In this document: piece by piece, positions 8,437 to 28,353 of the stretch
How the letters are laid out: each line of letters opens with the position of its first letter
Numbering within the stretch: the stretch's first letter is position 1
DNA from: Candidatus Omnitrophota bacterium
GTDB lineage: Bacteria; Omnitrophota; Omnitrophia; Omnitrophales; Aquincolibacteriaceae
NCBI GenBank assembly: GCA_018883425.1
Contig: VFQY01000001.1
Location: forward strand, 432 to 64,431
Length of the DNA stretch: 64,000 bases
Reading direction: 5' to 3'
Translations under genes and position numbers: made by a program
The notes under the pieces: model-generated
What the model was told of the DNA's origin: nothing
The model's input: only the letters and a program-made list of their open reading frames with translations
Database searches by the model: none

Positions 8437-10856
8437 TAATCAGGCACGGCTGAACAAAGCGCTCTGAGAATCGCGTCCCGATCCGAGCCCAGGGATGCCT
8501 GCTTAAGAAGGAATTCCATCTTCTTGCGAAAATCAGCGTCTGTGACGGGGGCTTCCCAAATTTGAATCTTGGAGCATTCGGTCGGGATCAACCGCTCGCC
8601 TTTCATCTGGATCTCCTCTTCGAGTTTCTCGCCCGGCCTGAGACCGATGTAGCGGATGGGAATCTGATCCGGCGCGGCGCCCATGAGCTGCATAAGATTA
8701 CGGGCTAAATCGGCAATCCTCAGAGGGTCGCCCATGTCCAGAACGAAAATTCTTTTACCTCCGCCGATCCTGGAGGCCTCCAGGATCAAAAAAACCGCCT
8801 CCGAGATATCCATAAAATAGCGTTTGACGTCCGGATGCGTCACGGTGACCGGACCGCCCCTTTCAATCTGGGATCTAAAAAGCGGGACGACGCTGCCCCG
8901 GCTGTTGAAAACGTTTCCAAAACGGACTGCCATGAACTGGGTTTTTGCGGAGCTCATGGTCTGCAGATAAAGTTCTCCGATCCGCTTCGTGGCCCCCATC
9001 ACGCTCGAGGGACGAATCGCTTTATCCGTGGAAACCATCACGAATTTTTCCGATTCAAACTGGGCCGCCAAATCCGCAGCATTGCGGGTACCGAGCACAT
9101 TATTCAGGATACCCTCGGCAACATGATGCTCGAGAAGCGGCACATGTTTGTAGGCCGCGGCGTGATAGACGATCTCGGGACGATGACTGGAAAAAACTTT
9201 TTCAAGAGCGGCGCGGTCCCGAATATCCCGCAGATAAGGCACCACCCGAACCCCGGAAGCTGCCGATGCCGCAAGCTCCATTTCGATCTCATAAAGATTA
9301 CTTTCTGACTGATCGACCAAAACGATTTCATGCGGATGATGCTCGTGAATTCTGCGGGCAAGCTCCGACCCGATGGATCCGCCGGCCCCAGTAATGAGAA
9401 TTCGCTTCCCGGCCAGAAAGTTTTCAAGACGGCCCGCATCCGCTTTGACCAAACTTCTTCCGAGAAGGTCGGCGACATCGACTTCTTTGAGCTGGAGCGG
9501 CACGATCTGGGGGGGCAGAATGTTTGCCATGCGCGGCATGATGCGGCAGATCAGATCCAAGCGCCTCCCTTCGCTGAGAATGGTCTGGATCGTTTGTCCT
9601 GAGACCTCTGTCAGCGCAATGATCAAGGCCTCGGCTTTTTTGACCCGGGCAGCCTGCGTCAGGTGATTCAACCCCCCGAGAACTTTGATACCGTGAATGC
9701 GGACCCCCGCCTTGAGCGGGTCTTCATCCAGAATGCCGACCGGGCGGTAACCCAGGCCGGGCCTTTTCATCAACTCTCGGATCAAACGCTCGCCGGCGTC
9801 ACCCGCCCCGAGGATAAGCGTATTTTTCGACTTGTGTCCGGTGCGGGGAACGCGGAGACGCTCTGCCGTCACCTTAAAAAAAATACGTGAAAAGCCAAGC
9901 GCCAAAATCAGGATGAGCCAATCCAAAACCAGCGTGGATCGGGGCTGATAACCCGTCTGTGCCAAAAAACTTACGACAGGCAGGAGCAGAGAACCCGCCG
10001 TCACGGACTTGACGATCGCAATCAGTTCGGTCAGTCCCAGATATTGCCAAAGCGTCTGATAAAGTCCGAAAGAAACGTAACAAAACCCCCGGAGGATCAG
10101 CACCCAGGGCAGCATGGCCCAGAAAATGGCGAGCTGATCTTCGGGGACCTGATTTTCGAACCTCAGAAGAAAGGCAGCCGCGTAGGAGGCTGCGGCCAGC
10201 ACCAAATCAAACGCAAGAAAAGAAATTCTGCGCCGGCTTTCGAAGATATATCCCCATTTAAAAAAACCGGAAGTCAGAGCGGGCACGGCTCGGAAAACGA
10301 TTTTCAAATCCTTCAGGGGGTCCCGGCTTCGCACATAATCCAGATCGCACTGTATTTTTGCTTTCAGGATATGTTCCCGGTAAAAAGCTTCAATATCTCC
10401 GGTCTCGGGCAAAATTTTCTCTTCATCGCGCCAAAGAAGCTGCGATGAACCCAAAATGCCGGGCCTGGTTTCAAAAATTTCAGCGCGCTCGCTCTCCGCA
10501 TAAAGATCCATCATGCGGGGCACCTCGGGACGCGGCCCCACCAGGCTCATCTCGCCTAAAACCACATTGAAAAGCTGCGGAAGCTCATCCAGCTTTGACT
10601 TTCTTAGAACACGGCCGATCCTCGTAATCCGCACATCGTTCTTAGCCGTAATTTGTGCGCCGAGGGATTCAGCGTCTTCCACCATCGTACGGAATTTCCA
10701 AATCCAGAACACCTGACCTCTCCGCCCCACTCTCTCTTGCCGAAAAAAAACACTGCCCTCGGCATCAAGCTTGATGAGCAGCGCAGTCAAAATCATCAGC
10801 GGGGACAGAACCGCGAGAGCCGTCAGACTGACCGCAAAATCCAGAACTCTCTTCAT
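8415..10856 (-). CDS. Bifunctional fusion: N-terminal PglC/WbaP-type phosphoglycosyl transferase domain, a polytopic membrane segment, then a C-terminal PglF/WbpM/CapD-type UDP-sugar 4,6-dehydratase domain
   Basis: N-terminus MKRVLDFAVSLTALAVLSPLMILTALLIKLDAEGSVFFRQERVGRRGQVFWIWKFRTM...DELPQLFNVVLGEMSLVGPRP matches bacterial sugar transferases. After four predicted TM helices, RILITGAGGSIGSELARRI...VDQSESNLYEIEMEL...YHAAAYKHVPLLE matches Polysacc_synt_2 (CapD) dehydratases. Confidence 0.8.
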   Translation of the reverse strand: MKRVLDFAVSLTALAVLSPLMILTALLIKLDAEGSVFFRQERVGRRGQVFWIWKFRTMVEDAESLGAQITAKNDVRITRIGRVLRKSKLDELPQLFNVVLGEMSLVGPRPEVPRMMDLYAESERAEIFETRPGILGSSQLLWRDEEKILPETGDIEAFYREHILKAKIQCDLDYVRSRDPLKDLKIVFRAVPALTSGFFKWGYIFESRRRISFLAFDLVLAAASYAAAFLLRFENQVPEDQLAIFWAMLPWVLILRGFCYVSFGLYQTLWQYLGLTELIAIVKSVTAGSLLLPVVSFLAQTGYQPRSTLVLDWLILILALGFSRIFFKVTAERLRVPRTGHKSKNTLILGAGDAGERLIRELMKRPGLGYRPVGILDEDPLKAGVRIHGIKVLGGLNHLTQAARVKKAEALIIALTEVSGQTIQTILSEGRRLDLICRIMPRMANILPPQIVPLQLKEVDVADLLGRSLVKADAGRLENFLAGKRILITGAGGSIGSELARRIHEHHPHEIVLVDQSESNLYEIEMELAASAASGVRVVPYLRDIRDRAALEKVFSSHRPEIVYHAAAYKHVPLLEHHVAEGILNNVLGTRNAADLAAQFESEKFVMVSTDKAIRPSSVMGATKRIGELYLQTMSSAKTQFMAVRFGNVFNSRGSVVPLFRSQIERGGPVTVTHPDVKRYFMDISEAVFLILEASRIGGGKRIFVLDMGDPLRIADLARNLMQLMGAAPDQIPIRYIGLRPGEKLEEEIQMKGERLIPTECSKIQIWEAPVTDADFRKKMEFLLKQASLGSDRDAILRALCSAVPDYQPWRPD

Positions 10857-12088
10857 AACGGCCTCTTGAGGTCTGCGCTCTGCAGGATTTCGAGAACTTT
10901 CTGAGCGACGAAGCCGGCATCTTCATCCGACATCCCGGGATAGATGGGCAGAGAAACAATTCTTTTGAAGCAGTCTGAGGTGTTGGGAAAATCTTCGGGC
11001 TTGAGCCCGAGTTTTTCCTGATAATACGGGTGTTCACTGAGCGGAATAAAATGGACGCTTGTTCCGATACCGGCAGAGCGCATCTTCTCCATGAATTCGT
11101 CGCGGCTGATCGAAAGCTTCTCGATCTCAAGCTTGATCACAAACAAATGCCAGGCATGCGACTCAAAACTGCCGCAAGCCGGTGTACGGAGAAGTTCACA
11201 GCCCCGGAAGGCCTCCAAATAGCTCGCCGCGATCCTCCGCCGCCTCTCGAGGAAGCGTGCGCTTTTTCGAAGCTGCTGAAGACCAATGGCTGCCTGAATA
11301 TCGCTCATATTATATTTTCGGCCGAGCGTCACCACATCGTAGCGCCAAGCGCCTGGATTTTGATAGCGCTTCCAGGCGTCGCGCGTAATCCCATGAAGGG
11401 AAAGCAGCCGCGCCCGCTCGATCACCTCATCATGAGGCGTCACCAGCATTCCTCCTTCACCCGTGGAAAGTGTCTTGGTCGCGTAGAAACTAAAACAAGT
11501 AGCATCGCCGAAAACGCCGACTTTTTTTCCTTCGTAAAGCGTTGGAAAACTGTGCGCGGCATCTTCCACCAGCTTCAAACTGTAGCGCTCTGCGATCCTC
11601 TTGATGGGATTCAGCTCACACGCCTGCCCCGCAAAGTGGACAGGCAAAATAGCCCGGGTCCGGGCGGTGATTTTTTCCTCGATTCTGTCAGCCAGAATGT
11701 TGAAGCTCTCAGGACTGCAATCCACATAAACCGGTTTAGCCTTGCAATAGAGAATGACCTCAGAAGTGGCGACAAAAGTAAAAGGGACCGTAATCACCTC
11801 GTCGCCCTCTTTGATCCCAAGAGCCTCGAGCGCTACGTGCATCGCTGCCGTCCCGCTATTGACGGCCAACGCGTGTTTGACCCCGATCTCGGCCGCAAAG
11901 GCCCGCTCGAAATCCCGGACTTTCGGCCCCGTCGTAATCCAACCGCTGCGGATCGTCTCCGTCACTTCGCGGATTTCTTCTTCTCCATACTCCGGTTTAT
12001 GAAATGGAATCTTAAGCTCTTCCAAAGCTGTCCCCTTCGGCAAGAAATTTTTCAAGGATAGAAACAATGCGCTCCGCTGCGCCGCCAT
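10853..12088 (-). CDS. DegT/DnrJ/EryC1/StrS-family PLP-dependent sugar aminotransferase (ArnB/PglE-like)
   Basis: IPFHKPEYGEEEIREV...GWITTGPKVRDFERAF and the ATKTLSTGEGGMLV lysine region. Track ORF starts at 12166; nearest ATG is at 12088. 4-bp overlap with the downstream fusion gene. Confidence 0.85.
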   Translation of the reverse strand: MAAQRSALFLSLKNFLPKGTALEELKIPFHKPEYGEEEIREVTETIRSGWITTGPKVRDFERAFAAEIGVKHALAVNSGTAAMHVALEALGIKEGDEVITVPFTFVATSEVILYCKAKPVYVDCSPESFNILADRIEEKITARTRAILPVHFAGQACELNPIKRIAERYSLKLVEDAAHSFPTLYEGKKVGVFGDATCFSFYATKTLSTGEGGMLVTPHDEVIERARLLSLHGITRDAWKRYQNPGAWRYDVVTLGRKYNMSDIQAAIGLQQLRKSARFLERRRRIAASYLEAFRGCELLRTPACGSFESHAWHLFVIKLEIEKLSISRDEFMEKMRSAGIGTSVHFIPLSEHPYYQEKLGLKPEDFPNTSDCFKRIVSLPIYPGMSDEDAGFVAQKVLEILQSADLKRPL

Positions 12089-13109
12089 CCCAAAGAGGGA
12101 TAGCTGTCGGAACAGGCCGCGGCTCTTCCAGGATCCTGAAAGCCTGCTCAATGATTTTCTTTTCATGGACAGCGCAGAGCCGGTTTGTTCCCTGAGTCAA
12201 AGTCACCGGCCTTTCGGTATTCTTTCGCAGAGTGATGCAGGGGACAGCCAAAGCTGAAGTTTCCTCCTGCAGTCCTCCCGAGTCCGTCATCACGAAGGCG
12301 GATCCGGCCGTCAGCGAGAGAAAGTCGAGATACCCCAGCGGTTCCGTCAGCGTTACCCCCGACCATTCAGCTCCGAGGACTTCGATGCGCTGAAGTGTCC
12401 GCGGGTGAATGGGAAACACAACGGGGATCCGGGATGCAATTTGACAGACCGCACGGTTCAACTCAAGAAGCGTTGAGGGCCGATCGACATTCTCAGGACG
12501 ATGCAGAGTCAAAAGAGCGTAAGATTTCTCCCGAAAACCGTACCTCTCCCAAGCCCTTCTCGTCAGGGCTTTTTCGAGCCCCCGAATCAGGCTGTCGATC
12601 ATGGTATTGCCGCTATCGAATATCTTAGCCGCGTCAACACCTTCGCGGAGTAAATTTTTCCGCGCACTCGGCTCCGTGGCAAAGAGCAGCGACGAGAGGT
12701 GATCCGTAATAACCCGGTTGATTTCCTCCGGCATAGCTCGATCAAAAGATCTCAAACCTGACTCGATATGAGCAACAGGTACTTGCATTTTTGCCGCCGT
12801 CCAAGCACAGGCGGCTGTCGAATTCACATCGCCGGCAACAATCACAATTCGGGGCTCGGCTTGAGCGCAGACGGGTTCAAAGGCCTTCATGATCTCTGCT
12901 GTTTGAGATGCATGCGAACCCGAGCCGGCACCCAAATTCATATCCGGCTTCTGCAAATCGAGATCCCGAAAAAAAACATCCGACATCTCGGGGGAGTAAT
13001 GCTGTCCCGTATGAACAAGCATATGCGGAAGTTTCCTGCGGCTGATCTCGCGGACTACCGGGGCCATTTTGACAAAGTTGGGACGGGCACCGACAACCGA
13101 TAGGATCAT
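12012..13109 (-). CDS. wecB: UDP-N-acetylglucosamine 2-epimerase (non-hydrolysing)
   Basis: MILSVVGARPNFVKMAPV...HTGQHYS...SGSHASQTAEIM...VAGDVNSTAA...HIESGLRSFDRAMPEEINR. Confidence 0.9.
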   Translation of the reverse strand: MILSVVGARPNFVKMAPVVREISRRKLPHMLVHTGQHYSPEMSDVFFRDLDLQKPDMNLGAGSGSHASQTAEIMKAFEPVCAQAEPRIVIVAGDVNSTAACAWTAAKMQVPVAHIESGLRSFDRAMPEEINRVITDHLSSLLFATEPSARKNLLREGVDAAKIFDSGNTMIDSLIRGLEKALTRRAWERYGFREKSYALLTLHRPENVDRPSTLLELNRAVCQIASRIPVVFPIHPRTLQRIEVLGAEWSGVTLTEPLGYLDFLSLTAGSAFVMTDSGGLQEETSALAVPCITLRKNTERPVTLTQGTNRLCAVHEKKIIEQAFRILEEPRPVPTAIPLWDGGAAERIVSILEKFLAEGDSFGRA

Positions 13110-14335
13110 GACGGCACCGGACTGATCAGCATATGGATGAATTCTTCCTGGATCTTTCTTCGGTCATAACGTTTTTTAACTTCAGCTTTGCCGGCATCAC
13201 CCATGGTCTTACGCAATCCTGCATCGCGGGACAAGACCTCCACGGCCTCGACAAACTGCTCGGTATCTTTGGGTTTGACCACAATACCGCAGCCGCAGCC
13301 TCTGACAATACCTGCAGCTTCCCCCTCTGCCGCCAAAATGACGGGTTTAGCCGCAGCCATCGCTTCATAGAGCTTGGATGGAACAGCTCCTGGTAGAGTT
13401 CCAAGCAGGGGAACCATGAGAATATCGGCCGCCGCGAGCATTTCAGGAACTCTGTCGTACGGTCTTCCATCAAAAAAAGACACATTTTTAAGGTCTCTAT
13501 CTTTCGCCAGCTTTATCAATGCCGATTTTGCGGGCCCGTCACCGGCAAGAACATAATGGACCGGAAGATGCCGGGTTCGGGATGCCGACTCCAGTATTTG
13601 TTCCAACCCCTGCGCCAGACCGTGAAGGCCGGCGTAAAGAGCAAGACACGGTTTTTGAGGATGGTTCGGGATTCCCGGAAAGACCTCTTGGCGCCGGGCC
13701 GCCGGGAGAAGATCGAACTTTTCGAGATCCGCCCCATTAGAGAAAAGTGCTGTTCTCACTCCGGGAAACCTCGATGAGATGTCAGCAATAATCTCCCGCG
13801 ACTGTCCTGTCACCAGCCAGGCCCTTTGGTAGAAAAAGGCTTCCATCAGACTGCATGCATGAAAAACAGGACCGCCCGCGCGGAGCTTACCGAGCCGAAC
13901 GGCGGAGTCCGGCCAAAGGTCTGACACATTGAAAATCCAGCGGGCACGCTTCCATCGGCTGAGAAGAAATCCGCTGATTCCAAGGAAAAGAGGCGGACTT
14001 TCTGTAAAAAAATAATCGGCTTTCGGCAGGAAAAAAATGCCGTAGACAAACGACGCCAAAACAAACGAGAAATAATTGAAAAGTCTTTTCAGCAGACCCT
14101 CGCTCTGTGCAGGATAAATAGGCGTTCGAATCACCTGAACACCCCGAACATCCTCCTTGCGGAAAAACCCGCCGTAGCCCGGATAAATCCTTCCCTCCGG
14201 ATAGCTCGGCATCGCTGTCAGCACAGTCACCGAATGGCCGCGCAGAACGAAGGCCTCCGCCAAGCTCGAAAGTCTGGCCTGCGGGGCCCCTTTCTCCGGC
14301 GGATAATACTGTGTGTGAAGGATAATCTTCATCAT
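13106..14335 (-). CDS. GT4-family glycosyltransferase (WcaI-like, N-terminal GT4 domain)
   Basis: IILHTQYYPPEKGAPQARL N-terminus; C-terminal GT-B catalytic half. Preceded by a good RBS (AAGGAGAGAGG). Confidence 0.8.
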   Translation of the reverse strand: MMKIILHTQYYPPEKGAPQARLSSLAEAFVLRGHSVTVLTAMPSYPEGRIYPGYGGFFRKEDVRGVQVIRTPIYPAQSEGLLKRLFNYFSFVLASFVYGIFFLPKADYFFTESPPLFLGISGFLLSRWKRARWIFNVSDLWPDSAVRLGKLRAGGPVFHACSLMEAFFYQRAWLVTGQSREIIADISSRFPGVRTALFSNGADLEKFDLLPAARRQEVFPGIPNHPQKPCLALYAGLHGLAQGLEQILESASRTRHLPVHYVLAGDGPAKSALIKLAKDRDLKNVSFFDGRPYDRVPEMLAAADILMVPLLGTLPGAVPSKLYEAMAAAKPVILAAEGEAAGIVRGCGCGIVVKPKDTEQFVEAVEVLSRDAGLRKTMGDAGKAEVKKRYDRRKIQEEFIHMLISPVPS

Positions 14336-14450
14336 CGAGTGCGCCTCTCTCCTTCTTTTTAGTGCGCGAAAATAGACATTTCTTAATGACGAGCCTTGAT
14401 CAAACTGTCCCCCCCTGAAAATGACCGTAAATCCCGCGAGGCGAAAAATA

Positions 14451-14510
14451 GCATCCGGGAGCAGACCCCCCGAAGGTTCCGCATGCGCCCCCGGATGGGA
14501 GTTTTTTCTC
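14451..14510. promoter_or_regulatory. Stem-loop (CATCCGGG / CCCGGATG arms, about 30-nt loop with CGCATGCG palindrome) plus T-run, inside a 287-bp ORF-free gap in the glycan operon. Possible attenuator or internal terminator, or protecting hairpin
   Basis: Inverted repeat at 14451-14458 and 14489-14496. T-runs on both strands (TTTTTT on plus after the stem, TATTTTT on minus). Confidence 0.25.
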
Positions 14511-14622
14511 CACTCCTTTCCGGAAAGCTTAGGCTTTCATCGACTCAGGGAACAGCCGCCTTGATTTCCGGGCGTTTCGCAAGCTGTCACGATTCAGAAG
14601 ATCCCCGGAGGACCTAAACACT

Positions 14623-15252
14623 TCATAACTTCTTCGTCATCAAAAGACCCTGGCCGCCGTCGTCGACGGCGCCGCTCAAGACCCACCCGAGCTTTCTATG
14701 AAAAAATAACGCCTGATGATTATTCTTATCCACAGACAGGTGCATCTGTTTTTTTCCCCTGTGCCTAGCCTCTTTCGCAAGCTCACCCATAAGACGCCGG
14801 CCCAAACCTGTGCGCTGAAACTCAGGATCCACCGCAAGCACTAGGACGCCGAAACTGTCTTCGCATATAGAAAACCGAGGTTTCGTATCACGTTTCCCCA
14901 ACAGCCGTATCAAAGGGGCAAGGACCTTCCGTAAAAATCGAGCCTGAACCCATGCGCGGGGACTTACGAGCAAGCGGCAAAAAAGAAATCGTCGATTTTT
15001 TTTGACGAAACCGCTCACTGCGCCTTTAAAAGCGCCTCCCATGGCATATGCGGCTAATTTTCCGTCCGACGAAATTCCCACCGAAAAACATTCATGCGGT
15101 CCCGTCAGAAGCCAACGATAATAACGCCGCACGGCCTCAACGCCCAAGAGAGTCAGAAAGCTGTCCGGAAAAGCCCTCCTATGGAGACGCGCCGCTTTGT
15201 CCGCATCTTCACCACCCAGTCGGAATAAGGAGAGAGAGGTCTGTGGAGTCAT
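14623..15252 (-). CDS. GNAT-family N-acetyltransferase
   Basis: C-terminal LAVDPEFQRTGLGRRLMGELAKEA acetyl-CoA binding motif. ATGA overlap with the upstream CapK-like gene. Confidence 0.7.
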   Translation of the reverse strand: MTPQTSLSLFRLGGEDADKAARLHRRAFPDSFLTLLGVEAVRRYYRWLLTGPHECFSVGISSDGKLAAYAMGGAFKGAVSGFVKKNRRFLFCRLLVSPRAWVQARFLRKVLAPLIRLLGKRDTKPRFSICEDSFGVLVLAVDPEFQRTGLGRRLMGELAKEARHRGKKQMHLSVDKNNHQALFFHRKLGWVLSGAVDDGGQGLLMTKKL

Positions 15253-16658
15253 AACTTGTCTGAAGGAGCCTCATCCTTTGACATGCGGCTGATCACTGCG
15301 CGGAATTTGCCGTTCGAACCGCGGGGAATAAGCCGGCTGTATTGGATCTGGATCAGAGCCGGTCCGGTGAGGTTCTTCATGCGTTGAATCACGGCTTGTT
15401 CCTCCTCTGCAGAAAGGGGTCTCGAACAATTCATAACAACGCTGAAGACATCCAATTTTTCCTGAACAATCTGAGATTCCCGGACAGGGAGACCGGAAAA
15501 AACGGGGTTGAAATACCAGACCTTGCGGCCGTCCCTGAGGCTGAGAACATCGTGTTTGCGGCCATCGAAAGCTCGTATTGCTGGAAGCTTTCTACCGCAG
15601 GCGCAGGGCGGGGCATCTTCCGGGGCCAGACTCAGCCTATCGCCCGTTTCATAGCGAATCAACGGCATGTCGCGATGAATAAAACCTGTTGTGATCAGCT
15701 CGCCGATCTGACCTGCTGGCACATGGACCCCTTGTTCCAAGACTTCCAGATAACCCGTTTCGGGCCACAGATGCAAAACACCCTTCTCGCATTCTCCCGC
15801 GGCGGCGCCCATTTCTGACATCCCGTAGGTTTCCCGGACAGGGCATCGGAAAGCTTTTTCCATAGCCGCCTTTTGCGACGGACTGACAGGCTCTGCGTTG
15901 GTTATCACAACCTTCAGCGGAGGCACCGTCAAATTGCGCTCAAGAATTTCACAGGCTAAAAAATGCAATGCTGAGGTATAACCCAGCAGATAAACAGCCC
16001 GGCATTTGCGGACCGCTTCCAGACATTCCGGGATGAATTCAGGAAATAGGTGATAACAGGAGATATAGAGCTGATTCGAGCCGGCGTTCCAAACCCAGAA
16101 AGGAGGCTTTCGAGCAGCGGGCCCAACGATCTTCTGGGCTCCTATAATCGCCCATCGATCATGACGCGAGACTCCGTACCACCTCCTCCAGCGCGCCTCA
16201 AACAAAGCATACCACTCCCGCAAGGTATCGCGGCTTTGCCAAAGTTTGAGGGGAGTCCCTGTCGTTCCGCCGGTCGACTCAAGATAAAGTGTTTCTCTCC
16301 GGCCGGATTCTCTGAGAAAAGCCTGAGGATTTGAGCGCACCTCCTCTTTCGAAAGGGTGGGCCAGTTCTGCAAATCTCTCCAATCCGACAGATCTCCCTG
16401 TTTTCTTCTCGACTCCCACATCGCTCGGTAGTAGGGTACTTTCCTGGCCGCATCCTCCAAAAAATCGGGAAGTTTCTCATCCCTCCAAGCTTTCCATTGC
16501 GACGCATCCCAAAACTCTCTCTCAAGCGCTTCAGCAACCAACCTCTCGGTTTCCGGCCCGTAACGAAGCATCCTGAGATGGTATCCCCAAAGACTCGCGC
16601 CAAGGCATCGGAAAGTATACGGCAGCGCTTGATAAATACAGGTCACCCGAGAATTCAT
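15249..16658 (-). CDS. CapK/PaaK-like adenylate-forming enzyme (phenylacetate-CoA ligase / F390 synthetase family)
   Basis: STGGTTGTPLK P-loop-like AMP-binding motif of the PaaK family. Track ORF starts at 16721; ATG at 16658 makes an ATGA overlap with the upstream GT. Confidence 0.75.
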   Translation of the reverse strand: MNSRVTCIYQALPYTFRCLGASLWGYHLRMLRYGPETERLVAEALEREFWDASQWKAWRDEKLPDFLEDAARKVPYYRAMWESRRKQGDLSDWRDLQNWPTLSKEEVRSNPQAFLRESGRRETLYLESTGGTTGTPLKLWQSRDTLREWYALFEARWRRWYGVSRHDRWAIIGAQKIVGPAARKPPFWVWNAGSNQLYISCYHLFPEFIPECLEAVRKCRAVYLLGYTSALHFLACEILERNLTVPPLKVVITNAEPVSPSQKAAMEKAFRCPVRETYGMSEMGAAAGECEKGVLHLWPETGYLEVLEQGVHVPAGQIGELITTGFIHRDMPLIRYETGDRLSLAPEDAPPCACGRKLPAIRAFDGRKHDVLSLRDGRKVWYFNPVFSGLPVRESQIVQEKLDVFSVVMNCSRPLSAEEEQAVIQRMKNLTGPALIQIQYSRLIPRGSNGKFRAVISRMSKDEAPSDKL

Positions 16659-17746
16659 CGTTCCATACCCTCTTTCCCCGTGAGAAGAATTTTTTCCCAT
16701 TCCGGAAGAATAGAATCCCAACCGAATCGTTCAGCGTTAACTCTCGCTTCACGCGAAAACCGGACTGCAAGCTCCGGCTGACACAGCAGCTGCTTGACAG
16801 CTTCTGCAGCCCCTTTCGGATCTCCCGGGTTAAATAAAAGCGCGTTCTTTCCTGCCTCCCAGATTCTAGGGATTTCCCCCGCGTTCGAGCTAACGATGCA
16901 AAGACCGCTCGCCGCAGCTTCCATGACAGAAACGCCGAAGCTTTCAAGGGTTGTGGTATTGAGAAAAATGTCATGCTCTTGGAAGAGTTCGGGAAGTTTT
17001 GCATTAGGGATTCCTCCGCAAAGACGGACCGCCTTCTCTAGCCCAAGCTCGCGAATCGTCTGAAGAACTTTCCGGAACGTTCCATCTCCGGTGTCCGGAC
17101 CCGCCATGGTGAGCACTGCTTCAGGGAAGTCCTGGAGAATCAGCGCCAGAGTAGTCAAAGCAGTTTGAGGATCATAAATTTTATGGAAAGCTCGAACCCA
17201 ACAAAGCCGGGGACGCGGGCTCCGCCTTGAATGAAAAAAAAACTTTTTTAAATCGATGCCGTTCGGCAGGTACTCGATTTCGATCCCCGGGCAGCTCAGA
17301 GAATCCCTAAGATGGTAGGATGGACAAATTACCCGCTCTGCTTGGATTAGAAACCGTTTGAATTTTTTTTCAAAATGCCCTGCAAACGCAGGCAGATCCC
17401 CTCCATGCAGAGCTGCGACATAGGGTTTTCGAAGCACCCTCAGAAGAAAACCAGCTGCCTCGGCCCAATAAAAGGCTCTTCCGCTGTACACCAGAATGAC
17501 CGCTTTGTCATAAGCACCGCGGGAAAACACAATAGCGCACGCCATGCTAAGTGCGCGGATCCACCGAGTTTTGAAAACAGAGGCTCGGGAAACTCTCCAA
17601 CCCCGGGAGGACAGCCGCGACAAGAGATCTTCATAGGGGGATTTGATGGGCGATGCCTTGATGAAATTCCCGATAAAGAGCACCCGCTTTCCACTTTCTC
17701 GTTCCCCGAGAGTTTTGTCAGGCATATCTGCCTTCTTCCCTATCAA
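16655..17746 (-). CDS. GT4-family glycosyltransferase
   Basis: C-terminal GT-B motif FLNTTTLESFGVSVMEAAASGLCIVSSNAGEIP. Confidence 0.8.
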   Translation of the reverse strand: MIGKKADMPDKTLGERESGKRVLFIGNFIKASPIKSPYEDLLSRLSSRGWRVSRASVFKTRWIRALSMACAIVFSRGAYDKAVILVYSGRAFYWAEAAGFLLRVLRKPYVAALHGGDLPAFAGHFEKKFKRFLIQAERVICPSYHLRDSLSCPGIEIEYLPNGIDLKKFFFHSRRSPRPRLCWVRAFHKIYDPQTALTTLALILQDFPEAVLTMAGPDTGDGTFRKVLQTIRELGLEKAVRLCGGIPNAKLPELFQEHDIFLNTTTLESFGVSVMEAAASGLCIVSSNAGEIPRIWEAGKNALLFNPGDPKGAAEAVKQLLCQPELAVRFSREARVNAERFGWDSILPEWEKILLTGKEGMER

Positions 17747-18288
17747 GGTTCGTCATCGTGAACTTCCTTCACGGCCCTGGCTGAAACGCCGGCATCGAGC
17801 GTATTATCAGGACTCTTGCCGGCAGTTGCGCAGGAATTTTCGGCCAAAATGCATCCGGCCCCAATAACCGCCCCATCGAGAACAGAGGCATGAGTCCCAA
17901 CCCATGTACCGCGTCCGATACGAATGGGCCGGGCAATAACCTTCCCTTTTCGGAACGAACCGCTTTTTCGTGTGTGCCTCCCGCTCGCCACGACAGCATA
18001 AGGCGAGATCATCACGTCATCTTCGATACACACGTCATGATTTGCAAGGATCACCACCCCATAGGCAAGATAAACGTCCTGGCCCAGATGAATTCGAGAG
18101 GGTTGATAAAATGATACATACCGCCCCAAAACGAGCCGGGGCCCGAATTCAGCAGAAAAGAAAGATGCCAACCAACCCCGAAAACGCATCAAGGAAGCTC
18201 GGTCCGGCATCCATGCGCAAAGAAAAAGAACCGTACGAAGCGGCCAATCATGACGTAATTGAATCCGAAAATTACGCACCCTGTTCAC
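17743..18288 (-). CDS. Hexapeptide-repeat (left-handed beta-helix) sugar O-/N-acetyltransferase (WcaF/PglD-like)
   Basis: Repeating [LIV]G..x..[LIV] hexads: IRIGRGTWVGTHASVLDGAVIGAGCILAENS. Confidence 0.8.
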   Translation of the reverse strand: MNRVRNFRIQLRHDWPLRTVLFLCAWMPDRASLMRFRGWLASFFSAEFGPRLVLGRYVSFYQPSRIHLGQDVYLAYGVVILANHDVCIEDDVMISPYAVVASGRHTRKSGSFRKGKVIARPIRIGRGTWVGTHASVLDGAVIGAGCILAENSCATAGKSPDNTLDAGVSARAVKEVHDDEP

Positions 18289-19447
18289 CTCTCCAAAGCT
18301 GAAGATGTTCGGCCATCATCTCAACTTGACGATCAATCACAACGCTGCGCGCCAAATCGAAACCCGATCGGATCATCTGCATTCTGCTCTCAGAATCACC
18401 CATGAGGTCGAGCAGCGCCTCTGCAATATCGTGAGGCATCTGAGGGGGGACGATCCTTAAGGCCTTTGCGGCATATTCAGAAATCGACCCCACGTCTGTC
18501 GCAATCACAGGAAGCCCTTGCGAGAACGCCTCACTGATTGCACGGGGGAAACCTTCCGAAGAACGTGAAGCGGTCACAAAAAAATCCGCCTCCCGATAAT
18601 AGTTCCAAAGCTGCGGCCCAAGGGGAACATACCCGTGATAAAAAACCCGCTCTGAAACACCTGCATCTCGGGCTCTTCCAAAGACCCTCTCCAAAACCCT
18701 ATCCCGAGGATCTAGCGGGCCAACGAGATCCCATCGAACAGAAACACCTTTATTCGAGAGAAGAATCACCGCTTCGAGAACATCCTCGAGGCCTTTTGCG
18801 CTATCCATGCGGCCGGTATAGAGAAGCCTGATAACTTGCCCCCGGCAAGTGTCTTCCCGGTAAAAAAAATCGTTTTCCCCAAACGTGCTCGTCCGAACTT
18901 CTACTAATTTCGCAGCGACACCTTCCAACTGATGAAAGAGCGGACGATTGTTCACAAACGTTAAGGCCCGGCGGCAAAGTTTATTTTGCTGACTTCGGTT
19001 CCATCGGCTCCACATTGAAATCCCTAGCCGTTTTAATCCCGAACAGGCAAGGCTTGAGATCCCTTTTTCGTAATCCCCAACAAGCAGCAAGGCCAGCGGG
19101 ATGTGAGGGGCTCGGCTTGCAAGGGCTTTTAAAAGCGGGGAGGGGCCCCGGAGCAGCAATAAGTCAACCTCTCGGAGCTGCTGCCTGACCCTCCCCGCGA
19201 TTTGATGGCCGAAAAGAATCTGAAGGATTGCGCGCTGATGCTCCCCCAGGCTGCACAAGCTCACATTCCGAGCCTTGATTCTGCAATCCATCATCGCCGC
19301 CTCCCCGGACGCAGGCGAGGGCATAAAGCAGACGATCCTCTCGAAATGTCTCGCAAGCCTTTCCACAAAAACCGCCTGATAACCCGGCATATAGAGGCCG
19401 TCCTGTTTCCTCAGAGCCGGCAGATGGTAGTAATAACCCAGCTTCAT
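18272..19447 (-). CDS. GT4-family glycosyltransferase
   Basis: C-terminal EGFPRAISEAFSQGLPVIATDVGSISEY. Track ORF extends to 19642; ATG at 19447 gives an ATGA overlap with the upstream Wzy-like gene. Confidence 0.75.
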   Translation of the reverse strand: MKLGYYYHLPALRKQDGLYMPGYQAVFVERLARHFERIVCFMPSPASGEAAMMDCRIKARNVSLCSLGEHQRAILQILFGHQIAGRVRQQLREVDLLLLRGPSPLLKALASRAPHIPLALLLVGDYEKGISSLACSGLKRLGISMWSRWNRSQQNKLCRRALTFVNNRPLFHQLEGVAAKLVEVRTSTFGENDFFYREDTCRGQVIRLLYTGRMDSAKGLEDVLEAVILLSNKGVSVRWDLVGPLDPRDRVLERVFGRARDAGVSERVFYHGYVPLGPQLWNYYREADFFVTASRSSEGFPRAISEAFSQGLPVIATDVGSISEYAAKALRIVPPQMPHDIAEALLDLMGDSESRMQMIRSGFDLARSVVIDRQVEMMAEHLQLWRGEQGA

Positions 19448-20799
19448 AGGACAACCGCTCTTTCGGTTACTTGCCCCTCGGAGCTTCTCTGCGTCCTGAG
19501 AAATCGGCGGATATTTGCAGAGGTTACGATCATGCCCGCAACAAGACCGTACTTGAGCCAGGGCATTGTCCCGGTCAAACCCGCGAGCGACCAGAGATGA
19601 ATCGACATTGCGATAAAACTGGCATAAAGGGCTGCTGCCCAATAGTGCTTGCGGCGAGTCATGAAAACCGCTGCGCTATACCCCCTCCCTAAGAACAGCA
19701 CAAGAAGTGTGAGGTAGGGAAGGCCCCCAGCCAACCCTGTTTCGGCAAAAAATTGCATGTAAGCGTTATGCGAGGATTTGCTCTCAAACTTCTGCGATGA
19801 AAAATGACGAAGCGCCCTCGGCATTTCAAGCTCAACTCTCGTGAAGCGAAAGCGGCCGGGTCCACACCCCCACAAGGGATGTTTCTGCATAATCTTTATC
19901 GCTTTCTGGATCATCACCTTTCTAATTTGATACGACTTGTCCTGATCCAGGCTTTCGAGAGTCGAAAATCGCGAGACAAAACGCTCACGAACCTCCTGCG
20001 GCGCAGCTCTTGAAAAAATCCCCATCAAACCGCCAAGCAGCACAAGAAATAGAGCTGCTTTGAAGATGCCCCTTCCCTTTTTGGGATCTGCTGCGGCGCA
20101 AATCCATCCAAACACCGCAAACGATGCCGCAATAGCAATCCAGGAGGACCGGGAACCATTCATGAGAACGACAGCCAAAACAATGCCTAGCCCTAAAATC
20201 GCGAGCATCCTTTTTCGCGCTTCAGCTTGCATGAGAAATCCCGCGATGAAAACCGTATTGGCCGAAAAAATAAACGCGTACTCATTTTGAGTCATAAACT
20301 TCAATTCCATCCAAGCCCCGTAACTTCCGTATCGGATAGCCTCATAGAGCCTCACGAGTGCCAGCAGGAAAACGCTGAGCGAAAAAACTCCAGCCGTCAG
20401 CGGAAAAATCCAGGGTCGAAGAGACGCGAACAAAAGCGTCGTCACAAAAACAATCAGCCAGTAGGTGCAGCGGATGAGAACGATCATTTCGGTTTTTCCA
20501 AAGGAACTGCCGCTGCTGGATAACCCATTCACGAGAGCGCTGAAAAAGAAACCAGCACCCAGCCAGAGCGCCAGCCTGATCCATCCGCCCGCACGGATAT
20601 CTACCCGGCGGCGAGCCTTCAAAAAAACGTCCATAAAAAGGAGATAAAAAAGAATGGCTGACAGCGAGAGCCCTACAAAAGGAAGCTCAAGGAAAGGCAG
20701 CACCGTGTAGCCTGCGGCCAAAGCAAAAACTTTGGCTGACCAAGGAATTTTTTTAGACTCTCTAAAACAAGGGTCGAAACCCGGGGCAGCCCTCATCAC
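19444..20799 (-). CDS. O-antigen ligase / Wzy_C-family polytopic membrane protein (Wzy polymerase, WaaL ligase or PglL-type O-oligosaccharyltransferase; cannot distinguish)
   Basis: About 10-12 hydrophobic helices with a large loop containing ESKSSHNAYMQFFAETGL (Wzy_C-like H...N/AY motif region). Confidence 0.7.
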   Translation of the reverse strand: MMRAAPGFDPCFRESKKIPWSAKVFALAAGYTVLPFLELPFVGLSLSAILFYLLFMDVFLKARRRVDIRAGGWIRLALWLGAGFFFSALVNGLSSSGSSFGKTEMIVLIRCTYWLIVFVTTLLFASLRPWIFPLTAGVFSLSVFLLALVRLYEAIRYGSYGAWMELKFMTQNEYAFIFSANTVFIAGFLMQAEARKRMLAILGLGIVLAVVLMNGSRSSWIAIAASFAVFGWICAAADPKKGRGIFKAALFLVLLGGLMGIFSRAAPQEVRERFVSRFSTLESLDQDKSYQIRKVMIQKAIKIMQKHPLWGCGPGRFRFTRVELEMPRALRHFSSQKFESKSSHNAYMQFFAETGLAGGLPYLTLLVLFLGRGYSAAVFMTRRKHYWAAALYASFIAMSIHLWSLAGLTGTMPWLKYGLVAGMIVTSANIRRFLRTQRSSEGQVTERAVVL

Positions 20800-27713: not shown

Positions 27714-27789
27714 ACGGCCTTTGTTTTTATCACCTAAGCATCCTCGATCAGTTTTCTACCTAGATTCTGGAACCAAAAGGAGTGTTGAA

Positions 27790-28353
27790 ATGAAACTTCG
27801 TTCTGCCTTACTCGCTGTCATGCTTTGCATGACGCTCACGACCCCCCGCCTCCTGGCATCTGAGGATGTCTGGGATCTTGCTGAATCCGAGCAATATGGT
27901 AAGAAAAGCGCCGGCATGGTCGGCCGCGGTCTGATCAATGCCGCAACAAGCCCCGTTGACCTTGTCGTTCAGACTGTAGAAAGCACTCAGGAAGGACCTC
28001 CTTTTTTTGGAACCCTCACGGGGCTCTCTTCAGGCCTTGGCTGCACGGCGCTGCGTGCCTCTTCAGGCATTATGGATGTGGCGACTTTCTGGGTCCCTGG
28101 ATTTAACGGGTTCAAGGTGTCCCGCTCCTACTCGAACTGTCTGGAAGCCGAATACACGAAAGCCCGCTACACACCGGTTCGTGAACCGCAAACCCAAGTG
28201 ATTGAGCAGCCTCAGGTCGTGGTTGTTCAAGAGCCTGCCAAACCCGTTGTGGTGCAGGCTCCGAACCCTATGGACTATGTGAAGAAAGGCGATGCGCCTG
28301 ATCCGATGGCGTACGTTAAGAAGGGCTCCAACGAGAATTCTTACGTAAAATAG
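27790..28353 (+). CDS. Secreted hypothetical protein with signal peptide and C-terminal Pro/Val/Gln-rich region ending in YVKKG repeats
   Basis: MKLRSALLAVMLCMTLTTPRLLASEDV signal peptide. PQTQVIEQPQVVVVQEPAKPVVVQAPNPMDYVKKGDAPDPMAYVKKGSNENSYVK. RBS AAAAGGAGTG. Track ORF 27721 includes an upstream in-frame extension. Confidence 0.6.
   Translation: MKLRSALLAVMLCMTLTTPRLLASEDVWDLAESEQYGKKSAGMVGRGLINAATSPVDLVVQTVESTQEGPPFFGTLTGLSSGLGCTALRASSGIMDVATFWVPGFNGFKVSRSYSNCLEAEYTKARYTPVREPQTQVIEQPQVVVVQEPAKPVVVQAPNPMDYVKKGDAPDPMAYVKKGSNENSYVK

What the first reader, a model, noticed from the sequence alone, without database searches (positions are those of the whole stretch)
14623..16658. CapK/PaaK-like adenylate-forming enzyme plus GNAT acetyltransferase pair inside the operon (predicted unusual N-acyl or aminoacyl decoration of an amino sugar)
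The 470-aa protein carries the STGGTTGTP AMP-binding signature of the phenylacetate-CoA ligase/CapK family. It is translationally coupled (ATGA overlaps on both sides) to a GNAT. Such pairs are implicated in attaching non-acetyl acyl or amino-acid groups to amino sugars in capsules. Here they sit next to two aminotransferases, implying an amino sugar bearing a non-standard amide.
Basis: partly seen in the sequence, partly recalled or inferred. Interest (0 to 1): 0.55.

Follow-up and report, generated by a model that had tools for sequence, protein, structure and literature searches.

The report
Polysaccharide amide ligase with partner acetyltransferase
Two overlapping genes in a surface-polysaccharide gene cluster of an uncultured Omnitrophota bacterium encode an ATP-dependent amide-forming ligase and a specialised acetyltransferase that almost always accompanies such ligases, so together they probably add an acetyl-capped amide side group to a sugar; this is plausible but unproven and only moderately unusual.

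Summary
The gene pair is real. A 469-aa CapK/PaaK-type adenylate-forming ligase (15249..16658, minus strand) and a 209-aa GNAT (14623..15252) are joined by ATGA overlaps, inside a Wzy-type polysaccharide locus of a Candidatus Omnitrophota MAG. The immediate neighbours are glycosyltransferases, not aminotransferases; those lie 2.4 kb and 12.5 kb away.

The ligase is not a true phenylacetate-CoA ligase. It belongs to the CapK family and is a full-length homologue (29% identity) of a ligase that sits in the VpsH position of a VPS-like locus. VpsH is the Vibrio cholerae enzyme needed to add glycine as an amide to a lipid-linked sugar.

Comparative genomics links the two genes. The GNAT belongs to a distinct subfamily, and 20 of 23 informative loci carry a CapK-like ligase within 1.6 kb, in either gene order. 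Only 13 of 80 ligase loci carry this GNAT, and the closest relative (73% identity) lacks it.

Best reading: the ligase forms the amide bond itself, and the GNAT is an optional step that acetylates a free amine. Nearby genes point to an amino sugar as acceptor rather than a uronic acid. Substrates remain unknown. I rate it a new variant of a known kind, of moderate interest.

The parts
15249..16658 (-). CapK/VpsH-type (PaaK-fold) adenylate-forming ligase, 469 aa
   Evidence: ORF and motif LESTGGTTGTP. Precomputed Pfam hits CapK_C PF27533 plus a weak AMP-binding hit. NCBIfam hits are all far below the equivalog cut-offs. The AF2 model has pLDDT 89, and Foldseek gives TM 0.70-0.76 to PaaK1/BT_0428. 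It shares 28.9% identity over its full length with the VpsH-position ligase of L168. The invariant residues that I read as the ANL core motifs are conserved.
14623..15252 (-). GNAT acetyltransferase of a distinct subfamily associated with CapK-like ligases, 209 aa
   Evidence: Pfam Acetyltransf_1 at 58 bits. The subfamily signature is H..AFPDS.LT.LG.EAVRRYY.W..GPH, with motif A QRTGLGRRL. There are 385 representatives at E<=1e-30. The AF2 model has pLDDT 85.6 and a cationic helical insertion at residues 78-119. Of 23 informative loci, 20 carry a ligase within 1.6 kb.
16655..17746 (-). GT4 glycosyltransferase, translationally coupled upstream of the ligase; the commonest neighbour of the ligase
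   Evidence: Pfam Glycos_transf_1. A GT4 occupies the -1 position in 28 ligase loci. A homologue is present in 9/9 loci with the GNAT and 32/43 without it.
14336..14622 (-). 287-nt non-coding gap after the GNAT, with a terminator-like hairpin at 14474..14454; a possible transcription-unit boundary
   Evidence: Sequence and pattern scan. The number of terminator-like sites is not above the shuffled expectation, so this is weak. No Rfam match.
17743..18288 (-). Hexapeptide-repeat (LbH) acetyltransferase, WcaF/LacA-like
   Evidence: Pfam Hexapep. NCBIfam WcaF family at 65 bits and NeuD/PglB/VioB at 39 bits, both below cut-off. Absent from the syntenic locus L004.
10853..12166 (-). DegT/PglE/PseC-like sugar aminotransferase (public gene calls give 390 aa, so the true start is probably internal)
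   Evidence: Pfam DegT_DnrJ_EryC1 at 431 bits. NCBIfam PseC at 385 bits, below the cut-off of 423. Gene calls.
8415..10856 (-). 813-aa fusion of an initiating phosphoglycosyltransferase (Bac_transf) with a PglF/CapD-type UDP-GlcNAc 4,6-dehydratase
   Evidence: Pfam Bac_transf at 2-193 and Polysacc_synt_2 at 486-766. NCBIfam EPS_sugtrans at 315 bits, above the cut-off of 296.
12012..13109 (-). WecB, non-hydrolysing UDP-GlcNAc 2-epimerase (makes UDP-ManNAc)
   Evidence: NCBIfam TIGR00236 at 328.5 bits, above the cut-off of 210.
13106..14335 (-). WcaI-family GT4 glycosyltransferase
   Evidence: NCBIfam PRK10307 at 190 bits, below the cut-off of 276. Pfam hits.
29185..30315 (-). Second DegT-family sugar aminotransferase at the far end of the cluster
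   Evidence: Pfam DegT_DnrJ_EryC1 at 383 bits.
19444..20799 (-). Wzy/O-antigen-ligase-like polymerase
   Evidence: Pfam Wzy_C at 67.8 bits.
25362..27200 (-). HepA/MsbA/PglK-like ABC exporter, a candidate flippase for the lipid-linked repeat unit
   Evidence: Pfam hits. NCBIfam HepA family at 448 bits, below the cut-off of 725, and PglK at 238 bits.

Best explanation
The two genes form a tailoring module of a Wzy-type surface-polysaccharide pathway in an Omnitrophota bacterium.

Shown:
- The ligase has the fold and the conserved core motifs of a PaaK-type adenylate-forming enzyme.
- It belongs to the CapK family and is homologous to VpsH-position ligases.
- The GNAT belongs to a separate subfamily that is found almost only beside CapK-like ligases.

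Inferred mechanism:
- The ligase uses ATP to adenylate a carboxylate and passes the acyl group directly to an amine, forming an amide on the growing repeat unit. It probably acts while the unit is still lipid-linked at the membrane, as proposed for VpsH, and needs no CoA intermediate.
- In this lineage the amine is most likely on a sugar. One candidate is a 4-amino-4,6-dideoxy-HexNAc, which the cluster's dehydratase and aminotransferase could plausibly make. The acid is a small free acid, most plausibly an amino acid.
- The GNAT then uses acetyl-CoA to acetylate the free amino group that the ligase step leaves. The result would be an N-acetyl-aminoacyl type substituent.
- The GNAT is an optional add-on. 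Most relatives of the ligase work without it.
For: Ligase chemistry:
- The P-loop STGGTTGTP is present. T277-Y278-G279-E282, Y336-G339-D340, G366-R367-D370 and G450-K451 are invariant; I read these as ANL motifs A5, A7, A8 and A10, from general knowledge of the superfamily.
- The fold matches PaaK1/BT_0428 and the amide/ester-forming NatL2 and AjiA1.
- It scores 66 against a cut-off of 646 for the PaaK equivalog, so it is not a catabolic PaaK.
- It is homologous over its full length, including the N-terminal helices that the phmmer alignments to PaaK did not cover, to the ligase in the VpsH position of VPS-type loci.
- VpsH is genetically required for the glycine amide on a BPP-linked disaccharide (PMC13463779).

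Coupling of the two genes:
- Both junctions are ATGA overlaps.
- 20 of 23 informative non-redundant GNAT loci have a CapK-like ligase within 1.6 kb.
- Both gene orders occur, and two ligase subfamilies (43-53% and 25-29% identity) are involved.
- Ligases with the GNAT are scattered over the ligase tree, with about 20 gains or losses.
- One in-frame ligase-GNAT fusion exists at L032.

Ligase self-sufficiency:
- Only 13 of 80 ligase loci have the GNAT.
- About 65 of 80 have no GNAT-profile or hexapeptide acyltransferase within 5 kb.
- The syntenic 73%-identical locus L004 keeps the dehydratase, aminotransferase and ligase but has no acetyltransferase among its called genes.

Amine on the sugar:
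- DegT or NodB-type deacetylase genes occur in 33 of 80 ligase loci, against 2 of 80 with a WecC/Ugd-like gene. There is none in the 64-kb window.
- DegT is enriched in loci with the GNAT: 6/9 and 11/17, against 11/43 without it.

GNAT as an amine-capping enzyme at the membrane stage:
- The nearest solved folds include enzymes I know as alpha-amine or small-amine N-acetyltransferases: PaiA, RimI, Ard1, puromycin and phosphinothricin N-acetyltransferases.
- The subfamily has an insertion with 10 K/R and no D/E.
- Natural fusions of the subfamily are with GT4 and GT2 glycosyltransferases.
Against: - No substrate has been identified, and everything about the acid, the amine and the order of steps is inference from context.
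- The only characterised relative, VpsH, works in the opposite orientation (sugar carboxylate plus free glycine). The window ligase is only 29-31% identical to VpsH-position ligases.
- A WecB (UDP-ManNAc) gene is present, so a ManNAcA made by a dehydrogenase encoded elsewhere cannot be excluded.
- Fewer than half of the ligase loci show an amine-generating gene in the fetched flanks.
- The loci are not phylogenetically independent, and the enrichment counts are small.
- GNAT fold neighbours are weak predictors of substrate.
- Ligase-GNAT fusions are rare: 1 of about 35 adjacent pairs and none among the top 150 GNAT representatives.
- The GNAT could act first, acetylating the free amino acid that the ligase then activates.
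Confidence: 0.4

Rival explanations
1. Acyl-CoA relay. The ligase converts an unusual carboxylic acid into its CoA thioester. The GNAT then uses that non-acetyl acyl-CoA to N-acylate an amino sugar.
For: - PaaK-type enzymes are classically CoA ligases, and the nearest solved structures are CoA ligases.
- The GNAT has the CoA-binding motif QxxGxG.
- The GNAT subfamily almost never occurs without a CapK-like ligase. This is what a dependence on the ligase's product would predict.
- Aminotransferases are enriched in loci with the GNAT.
Against: - About 65 of 80 ligase loci have no GNAT-profile or hexapeptide acyltransferase within 5 kb, and L004 has none among its called genes. Most ligases would therefore lack a transferase.
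- PaaK-fold enzymes that form amides or esters directly exist among the structural matches, namely NatL2 and AjiA1.
- VpsH is proposed to act without a partner transferase.
Confidence: 0.2
2. VpsH-like orientation. The ligase adenylates the carboxyl group of a uronic acid or another acidic sugar in the lipid-linked repeat unit. It amidates that group with an amino acid or a diamine. The GNAT acetylates the remaining free amine of that substituent.
For: - VpsH, the only family member with a genetic function, is needed to add glycine to GulNAcA, which derives from ManNAcA.
- The window encodes WecB, the first enzyme on the route to ManNAcA.
- Homology to VpsH-position ligases is full-length.
- An AAC(3)-family N-acetyltransferase lies two genes upstream of the ligase in the Pseudoalteromonas VPS-like locus.
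Against: - There is no UDP-sugar 6-dehydrogenase in the 64-kb window. Only 2 of 80 ligase loci and 1 of 80 GNAT loci have one, whereas both VPS-type loci examined carry wecB-wecC in the same locus.
- After amidation by a simple amino acid no free amine is left to acetylate, so a diamine or lysine-type substituent would be required.
Confidence: 0.15
3. Independent functions. The GNAT is simply the N-acetyltransferase that completes a bacillosamine-type sugar (dehydratase, aminotransferase, acetyltransferase). The ligase does something unrelated to it, and the overlap is only operon packing.
For: - The cluster has the dehydratase and aminotransferase and needs an N-acetyltransferase for a di-N-acetyl sugar.
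- DegT is enriched in loci with the GNAT.
- GNATs such as WecD and PseH do acetylate 4-amino sugars (established knowledge).
- The GNAT is absent from most ligase loci.
Against: - A generic sugar N-acetyltransferase would not be expected to sit within 1.6 kb of a CapK-like ligase in 20 of 23 informative loci. That proximity holds in both orders, with two ligase subfamilies, and with about 20 independent gains or losses.
- 6 of 17 long GNAT loci show no DegT.
- The match to the WecD model is negligible, at 19 bits against a cut-off of 219.
- None of the listed fold neighbours is described as a sugar N-acetyltransferase.
Confidence: 0.15
4. The ligase is a true phenylacetate-CoA ligase, or an F390-synthetase-like nucleotidyl transferase, with no role in amide formation.
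For: Public annotation calls it a 'phenylacetate--CoA ligase family protein'. There are weak hits to the PaaK and F390-synthetase models.
Against: - The scores are 66/646 for PaaK and 32/459 for F390 synthetase.
- No paa catabolic genes were seen among the window's ORFs.
- The gene is embedded between glycosyltransferases in nearly all loci.
Confidence: 0.03

Closest known systems
VpsH (VC0924) of the Vibrio cholerae VPS locus, a CapK-like ligase required for the glycine amide on L-GulNAcA (mBio 2026, PMC13463779)
   Same: - Same CapK/PaaK-fold family, with full-length homology to ligases in the VpsH position of VPS-type loci (28.9% identity, E 1.5e-52).
- Both are embedded among GT4 glycosyltransferases of a Wzx/Wzy-type pathway.
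- Both are dispensable-looking tailoring steps, likely acting on lipid-linked intermediates.
   Different: - Identity is only about 29-31%.
- There is no wecC or uronic-acid dehydrogenase in the window or in nearly all related loci, so the carboxylate is probably not on the sugar.
- A dedicated GNAT partner is present here. The V. cholerae paper describes no GNAT partner for VpsH, and no relative of this GNAT was found in the Pseudoalteromonas locus.
- The V. cholerae VpsH sequence itself could not be fetched, so the comparison uses synteny-defined orthologues.
PaaK phenylacetate-CoA ligases (PaaK1/PaaK2 of Burkholderia cenocepacia, BT_0428)
   Same: Same two-domain ANL fold (TM 0.70-0.76) and core adenylation motifs.
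   Different: - 20-22% identity.
- Fails the PaaK equivalog models by a wide margin.
- Has extra N-terminal helices that the phmmer alignments to PaaK did not cover.
- The genomic context is glycan assembly, not aromatic catabolism.
NatL2 / AjiA1 / BagE-type PaaK-like ligases that form esters or amides directly from an acyl-adenylate
   Same: Same fold and sequence family. From my own knowledge of these enzymes, they are a precedent for CoA-independent bond formation by this scaffold.
   Different: They act on aromatic amino-hydroxy acids in natural-product pathways and have no link to glycans.
S. aureus type 1 CapK, which gave the family its name
   Same: Same family name and Pfam domain (CapK_C), and a capsule locus. 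From memory, the type 1 capsule carries amide-linked taurine on GalNAcA.
   Different: Its function has never been shown biochemically, as far as I know and as far as the searched literature shows. It was not compared by sequence here.
GNAT N-acetyltransferases of 4-amino sugars (WecD, PseH)
   Same: GNAT fold and use of acetyl-CoA; they act in amino-sugar pathways that use DegT-type aminotransferases.
   Different: - Negligible match to the WecD model, at 19 bits against 219.
- This GNAT has its own N-terminal signature and a cationic helical insertion.
- It tracks CapK-like ligases rather than aminotransferases.

Membership tests
ANL superfamily, PaaK-type adenylate-forming enzymes | P-loop/A3 motif [ST]-[ST]-G-[ST]-T-G-x-P | tested here: met
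   LESTGGTTGTP is in the sequence. T129, G131 and G134 are invariant in 26 homologues. It aligns to SSSGTTGNP of BT_0428.
ANL superfamily, PaaK-type adenylate-forming enzymes | Core motifs A5 (YGxxE), A7 (YxTGD), A8 hinge (GRxD) and the A10 catalytic lysine (GK) | tested here: met
   T277/Y278/G279/E282, Y336/G339/D340, G366/R367/D370 and G450/K451 are invariant. Assignment to the A-motifs rests on general knowledge of ANL enzymes.
ANL superfamily, PaaK-type adenylate-forming enzymes | Two-domain PaaK-like fold | tested here: met
   AF2 model with pLDDT 89. Foldseek E 2e-23 and TM 0.70-0.76 to 4r1m and 2y27.
PaaK proper (phenylacetate-CoA ligase equivalog) | Score above the curated cut-off of TIGR02155 / NF041878 | tested here: not met
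   66 bits against 646, and 77 bits against 700.
PaaK proper (phenylacetate-CoA ligase equivalog) | paa catabolic gene neighbourhood | tested here: not met
   The neighbours are glycosyltransferases in the window and in the related loci.
CapK family (Pfam PF27533 CapK_C) | Match to the CapK_C domain | tested here: met
   A precomputed Pfam hit is recorded for the identical protein P0001 and nearly all homologues. The model is not in the local Pfam copy, so no score was seen.
VpsH-type polysaccharide amino-acid ligase | Sequence homology to VpsH over the whole length | tested here: met
   28.9% identity, residues 8-456 against 6-436, E 1.5e-52 to the VpsH-position ligase of L168. 31% identity to that of Vibrio L167. 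The orthology of these two to V. cholerae VpsH is inferred from gene order only.
VpsH-type polysaccharide amino-acid ligase | Uronic-acid (ManNAcA/GulNAcA) supply genes in the locus | tested here: not met
   WecB is present, but no WecC/Ugd homologue is in the window. Only 2 of 80 related loci have one.
VpsH-type polysaccharide amino-acid ligase | Amide formation on a polyprenyl-diphosphate-linked glycan | not testable with these tools
   This needs LC-MS of lipid-linked intermediates or an in-vitro assay.
DVU_1553 family AMP-dependent CoA ligase (best NCBIfam hit) | Score above the curated cut-off | tested here: not met
   122 bits against 300.
GNAT superfamily | Acetyltransf_1 domain, motif A Q/RxxGxG/A, and the GNAT fold | tested here: met
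   58 bits against a cut-off of 20.7. QRTGLGRRL has G149 invariant. Foldseek E 1e-11 to PaaK-unrelated GNATs such as PaiA and RimI.
Sugar 4-amine N-acetyltransferases of the GNAT type (WecD model NF008212) | Score above the curated cut-off | tested here: not met
   19 bits against 219.
RimI (the name given by JGI to relatives) | Score above the TIGR01575 cut-off | tested here: not met
   39.5 bits against 86.4, matching only the C-terminal CoA-binding half.

The most novel reading that the evidence does not exclude
The CapK-like ligase and its dedicated GNAT are a widespread two-enzyme cassette that builds N-acetyl-aminoacyl (or similar capped) amide side chains on amino sugars of lipid-linked repeat units. 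This chemistry is known from O antigens such as E. coli O121, O114 and O63, and I found no enzyme assigned to it in the literature I could search. The GNAT-less version would leave a free amine, giving a zwitterionic polysaccharide.
Probability: 0.3. Interest if true: 0.6.

Novelty: new variant of a known kind. Interest (0 to 1): 0.4.

Why it matters
Amide-linked amino acids and other non-acetyl N-acyl groups are common antigenic determinants of bacterial surface polysaccharides. In the literature I searched, the only CapK-family enzyme linked genetically to such a group is VpsH (2026).

The analysis shows three things about this family:
- The ligase subfamily is very large, with thousands of homologues in Acidobacteriota, Chloroflexota, Planctomycetota, Verrucomicrobiota, Omnitrophota and other phyla.
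- It usually sits between glycosyltransferases.
- A specific GNAT subfamily (about 385 representative clusters) is an accessory of these ligases.

If the proposed division of labour is right (the ligase makes the amide and the GNAT caps the amine), glycan side-chain chemistry could be predicted from sequence. It would also supply candidate enzymes for N-acetyl-aminoacyl sugars. If it is wrong, the pair remains an ordinary, generically annotated tailoring pair in an environmental polysaccharide locus.

Tried and rejected
- I could not obtain the V. cholerae VpsH sequence. I used synteny-defined VpsH-position ligases from Vibrio sp. THAF191d and Pseudoalteromonas sp. THAF3 instead.
- I looked for ligase-GNAT fusions as Rosetta-stone evidence. 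Several apparent long ORFs (L008, L061, L036) were frame artefacts of my ORF caller. Only L032 is in frame. Among the top 150 GNAT representatives the fusions are with GT4 or GT2, not the ligase.
- I took the frequent AsnB-like neighbour as a possible uronamide synthase. In Pyrinomonadaceae it belongs to a cassette that looks like a lasso-peptide gene set (PqqD, a ~147-aa protein, AsnB-like, ABC), so I did not count it as evidence.
- Literature searches for CapK, phenylacetate-CoA ligase or F390 synthetase in polysaccharide loci found nothing beyond the VpsH paper.
- The S. dysenteriae type 7 / E. coli O7 Qui4N paper is not held. The O-antigen cluster survey does not mention such ligases. I therefore could not test whether E. 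coli O121, O114 or O63 clusters contain the pair.
- Rfam found nothing in the window. The promoter scan found nothing, and terminator-like sites were not above expectation.
- A word-index protein search with the GNAT found only 11 relatives. The exhaustive profile search was needed.
- The pocket residues of the ligase could not be analysed, because model coordinates are not returned.
Full report
**Observation**

On the minus strand, 14623..15252 encodes a 209-aa GNAT and 15249..16658 encodes a 469-aa protein carrying LESTGGTTGTP. The upstream gene (16655..17746) ends in a TGA that overlaps the ligase ATG. The ligase TGA overlaps the GNAT ATG, so both junctions are ATGA overlaps. The mechanical ORF can be extended to a TTG at 16721, but homologues and public gene calls begin at the ATG.

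The statement that the pair sits next to two aminotransferases is inaccurate:
- The upstream neighbour is a GT4 glycosyltransferase.
- Downstream there is a 287-nt gap and then a WcaI-family GT4.
- The two DegT aminotransferases are at 10853..12166 and 29185..30315.

Exact-sequence look-up places the window in a Candidatus Omnitrophota MAG. There the two genes are annotated generically as 'phenylacetate--CoA ligase family protein' and 'GNAT family N-acetyltransferase'.

**The surrounding locus**

The region from about 8415 to 30315 on the minus strand is a Wzy-type polysaccharide cluster. In order along the window it contains:
- an 813-aa fusion of an initiating phosphoglycosyltransferase with a PglF/CapD-type 4,6-dehydratase;
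- a PseC/PglE-like aminotransferase;
- WecB (above its equivalog cut-off);
- a WcaI-family GT4;
- the GNAT, the ligase and a GT4;
- a hexapeptide acetyltransferase and another GT4;
- a Wzy-like polymerase;
- further glycosyltransferases and two proteins with no family hit;
- an SDR epimerase/dehydratase;
- a HepA/PglK-like ABC exporter;
- a TylF-like methyltransferase and a second DegT aminotransferase.

The cluster can therefore plausibly make a 4-amino-4,6-dideoxy-HexNAc and ManNAc. This is an inference from the established PglF/PglE and WecB pathways. No UDP-sugar 6-dehydrogenase is encoded anywhere in the 64-kb window.

**What the ligase is**

- Pfam's AMP-binding model is hit only at threshold.
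- NCBIfam models for DVU_1553-family ligase, PaaK, FlxY, BagE/FevW and F390 synthetase are all hit far below their cut-offs. PaaK, for example, scores 66 against 646.
- The precomputed Pfam annotation of the identical database protein is CapK_C (PF27533).
- Invariant residues that I read as the ANL core motifs are conserved in the subfamily: the P-loop, YGxxE, YxxGD, the GRxxD hinge and the C-terminal GK lysine.
- An AlphaFold model (pLDDT 89) matches PaaK1 and BT_0428 at TM 0.70-0.76 with 20-22% identity. The next matches include NatL2, AjiA1, ClxA and a 2-hydroxyisobutyryl-CoA ligase. From my own knowledge, NatL2 and AjiA1 form bonds directly from the acyl-adenylate.

It is therefore a functional-looking adenylate-forming enzyme of the PaaK fold, but not a PaaK.

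**Link to VpsH**

A 2026 paper shows that V. cholerae VpsH is required for adding glycine to L-GulNAcA on the bactoprenyl-diphosphate-linked VPS disaccharide. VpsH had been predicted to be a phenylacetate-CoA ligase and is described there as CapK-like. The authors propose ATP-dependent carboxylate activation (PMC13463779).

A tblastn search of the plasmid collection found CapK-like ligases in two VPS-type loci. One is in Vibrio sp. THAF191d, where the gene order follows that of vpsA-K. The other is in Pseudoalteromonas sp. THAF3, where NCBI annotates VpsD- and VpsF-family neighbours. The window ligase aligns with the Pseudoalteromonas protein over its whole length (28.9% identity, E 1.5e-52). 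This alignment includes the N-terminal helices that the phmmer alignments to PaaK did not cover. The ligase is thus a distant member of the same CapK/VpsH family.

**Are the two genes functionally coupled?**

Forward direction, starting from ligase homologues:
- Among 80 genome loci with ligase homologues (43-53% identity; Acidobacteriota, Chloroflexota, Planctomycetota, Verrucomicrobiota, Armatimonadota and others), a homologue of this GNAT lies nearby in only 13.
- The commonest neighbours are a GT4 immediately upstream (28 loci) and a GT2 with a hydrophobic C-terminal tail, which I read as transmembrane segments, immediately downstream (25 loci).
- The closest relative (73% identity, same flanking housekeeping genes) has a GT2 and a methyltransferase after the ligase. 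It has no GNAT or hexapeptide transferase among its called genes.

Reverse direction, starting from the GNAT:
- The GNAT belongs to a distinct subfamily with a conserved N-terminal signature. It has about 385 representative clusters at E<=1e-30.
- The 80 metagenome loci seeded with it collapse to 63 non-redundant groups.
- Of the 23 groups with at least 1.6 kb on both sides, 20 carry a CapK/PaaK-like ligase within 1.6 kb. One of the other three has it 4 kb away.
- Both gene orders occur.
- The partner ligases belong to two subfamilies, at 43-53% and 25-29% identity to the window protein.
- Ligases with the GNAT are scattered over a neighbour-joining tree, with about 20 parsimony changes among 110 ligases.
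- One in-frame ligase-GNAT fusion exists at L032. Other apparent fusions were frame artefacts.
- Among the top 150 GNAT representatives the natural fusions are with GT4 (four) and GT2 (two) glycosyltransferases.

Conclusion: the GNAT is an accessory of CapK-like ligases, and the ligase does not need the GNAT.

**Which partner carries the amine?**

- WecC/Ugd-like dehydrogenases are found in 2 of 80 ligase loci and 1 of 80 GNAT loci, and in none of the window. Both VPS-type loci examined carry wecB-wecC in the same locus.
- Amine-generating genes occur in 33 of 80 ligase loci despite truncated flanks. These are DegT aminotransferases or NodB-type polysaccharide deacetylases, and the deacetylases often lie one or two genes upstream of the ligase.
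- DegT is more frequent in loci with the GNAT (6/9 and 11/17) than in loci without it (11/43).
- FemAB-like genes appear next to the ligase in a few loci.

This favours a sugar amine as acceptor and a free acid as the activated substrate. The counts are small and the loci are not independent.

**Relay or direct ligation?**

About 65 of 80 ligase loci have no GNAT-profile or hexapeptide acyltransferase within 5 kb. L004 keeps the dehydratase, aminotransferase and ligase with no acetyltransferase among its called genes. This argues that the ligase completes the bond itself, as proposed for VpsH. A relay through an acyl-CoA handed to a transferase looks less likely.

Four observations fit a GNAT that caps a free amine of a membrane-bound intermediate, but none proves it:
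- Its nearest solved folds include enzymes I know as alpha-amine or small-amine N-acetyltransferases: PaiA, RimI, Ard1, and puromycin and phosphinothricin N-acetyltransferases.
- Its match to the WecD model is negligible.
- Its subfamily-specific insertion (residues 78-119) has 10 K/R and no D/E.
- Its natural fusions are with glycosyltransferases.

Chemically, capped and uncapped amino-acid amides are both known in O antigens. [quoted passage not shown] The review passages I read did not name the responsible enzymes.

**Verdict**

| Reading | Confidence |
|---|---|
| CapK/VpsH-type ligase makes an amide on the repeat unit, probably a small or amino acid onto a sugar amine, and a dedicated GNAT acetylates the amine left free | 0.4 |
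| Acyl-CoA relay | 0.2 |
| VpsH orientation on an acidic sugar | 0.15 |
| Independent functions | 0.15 |

The ligase is a new member of a known but barely characterised family. The dedicated GNAT partnership and the amino-sugar context make the pair a new variant of a known kind. I rate the interest as moderate (0.4).

Noticed in passing
window 8415..10856 (-): An 813-aa single protein fuses a small PglC-like phosphoglycosyltransferase (N-terminal) to a CoA_binding_3 domain plus a PglF/CapD 4,6-dehydratase. The same fusion occurs in the related loci L004 (819 aa) and L007 (811 aa). It couples synthesis of the first sugar to initiation.
   Followed up: partly
window 14336..14622, hairpin at 14474..14454 (-): A 287-nt non-coding gap lies directly after the GNAT and contains a GC-rich hairpin followed by a T-run. 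It may end a transcription unit (...GT4-ligase-GNAT). There is no Rfam match, and the number of terminator-like sites is not above the shuffled expectation.
   Followed up: partly
L043, L044, L076, L077, L083, L084 (downstream of the ligase-GT2 pair): A conserved cassette of PqqD-like, ~147-aa, asparagine-synthase-like, ~317-aa and ABC transporter genes looks like a lasso-peptide gene set. In Pyrinomonadaceae MAGs it lies directly next to the polysaccharide locus.
   Followed up: no
L049 10448..16291, L058, and shorter versions in L062 and L074: A 1.3-2.0-kaa ORF whose N-terminus looks like an NRPS adenylation domain lies immediately downstream of the ligase-GT2 pair or nearby. It was not annotated with any profile. 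It might supply or attach amino acids, or it may be an unrelated gene cluster.
   Followed up: no
L039 5891..7992, L023: A deacetylase-like gene and a FemAB-like/Acetyltransf_6 gene lie directly upstream of the ligase (plus the GNAT in L023). NodB-type deacetylases also lie within two genes of the ligase in L011, L014, L018, L054, L038, L026 and L081.
   Followed up: partly
P0149, P0192, P0244, P0253, P0254, P0274 (database proteins): Members of this GNAT subfamily are naturally fused to GT4 or GT2 glycosyltransferases, in both domain orders. P0132 is a tandem double GNAT.
   Followed up: partly
L168 7136..8985 (Pseudoalteromonas sp. THAF3 VPS-like locus): An AAC(3)-family N-acetyltransferase and a hypothetical protein sit just upstream of the VpsH-position ligase. 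In the Vibrio sp. THAF191d locus the gene just upstream of the ligase is a serine-acetyltransferase-like gene. This is another pairing of an N-acetyltransferase with a ligase.
   Followed up: no
window 27721..28353 (+): A 210-aa ORF on the opposite strand, between the ABC exporter and the methyltransferase, has no family hit. It has a hydrophobic N-terminal segment and a C-terminal repeat (PMDYVKKGD / PMAYVKKGS).
   Followed up: no
window 22971..24215 (-) and 20796..21971 (-): Two proteins of the cluster (414 and 391 aa) have no Pfam hit. They give only weak NCBIfam hits, to 'surface carbohydrate biosynthesis protein' and to GlfT1/HpsN-like GT2. Both are conserved in the syntenic locus L004.
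   Followed up: no
window 10853..12166 (-): The mechanical ORF of the DegT aminotransferase (437 aa) is 47 codons longer than public gene calls for the identical locus (390 aa). The longer form would overlap wecB by about 150 nt, so the real start is probably internal.
   Followed up: partly
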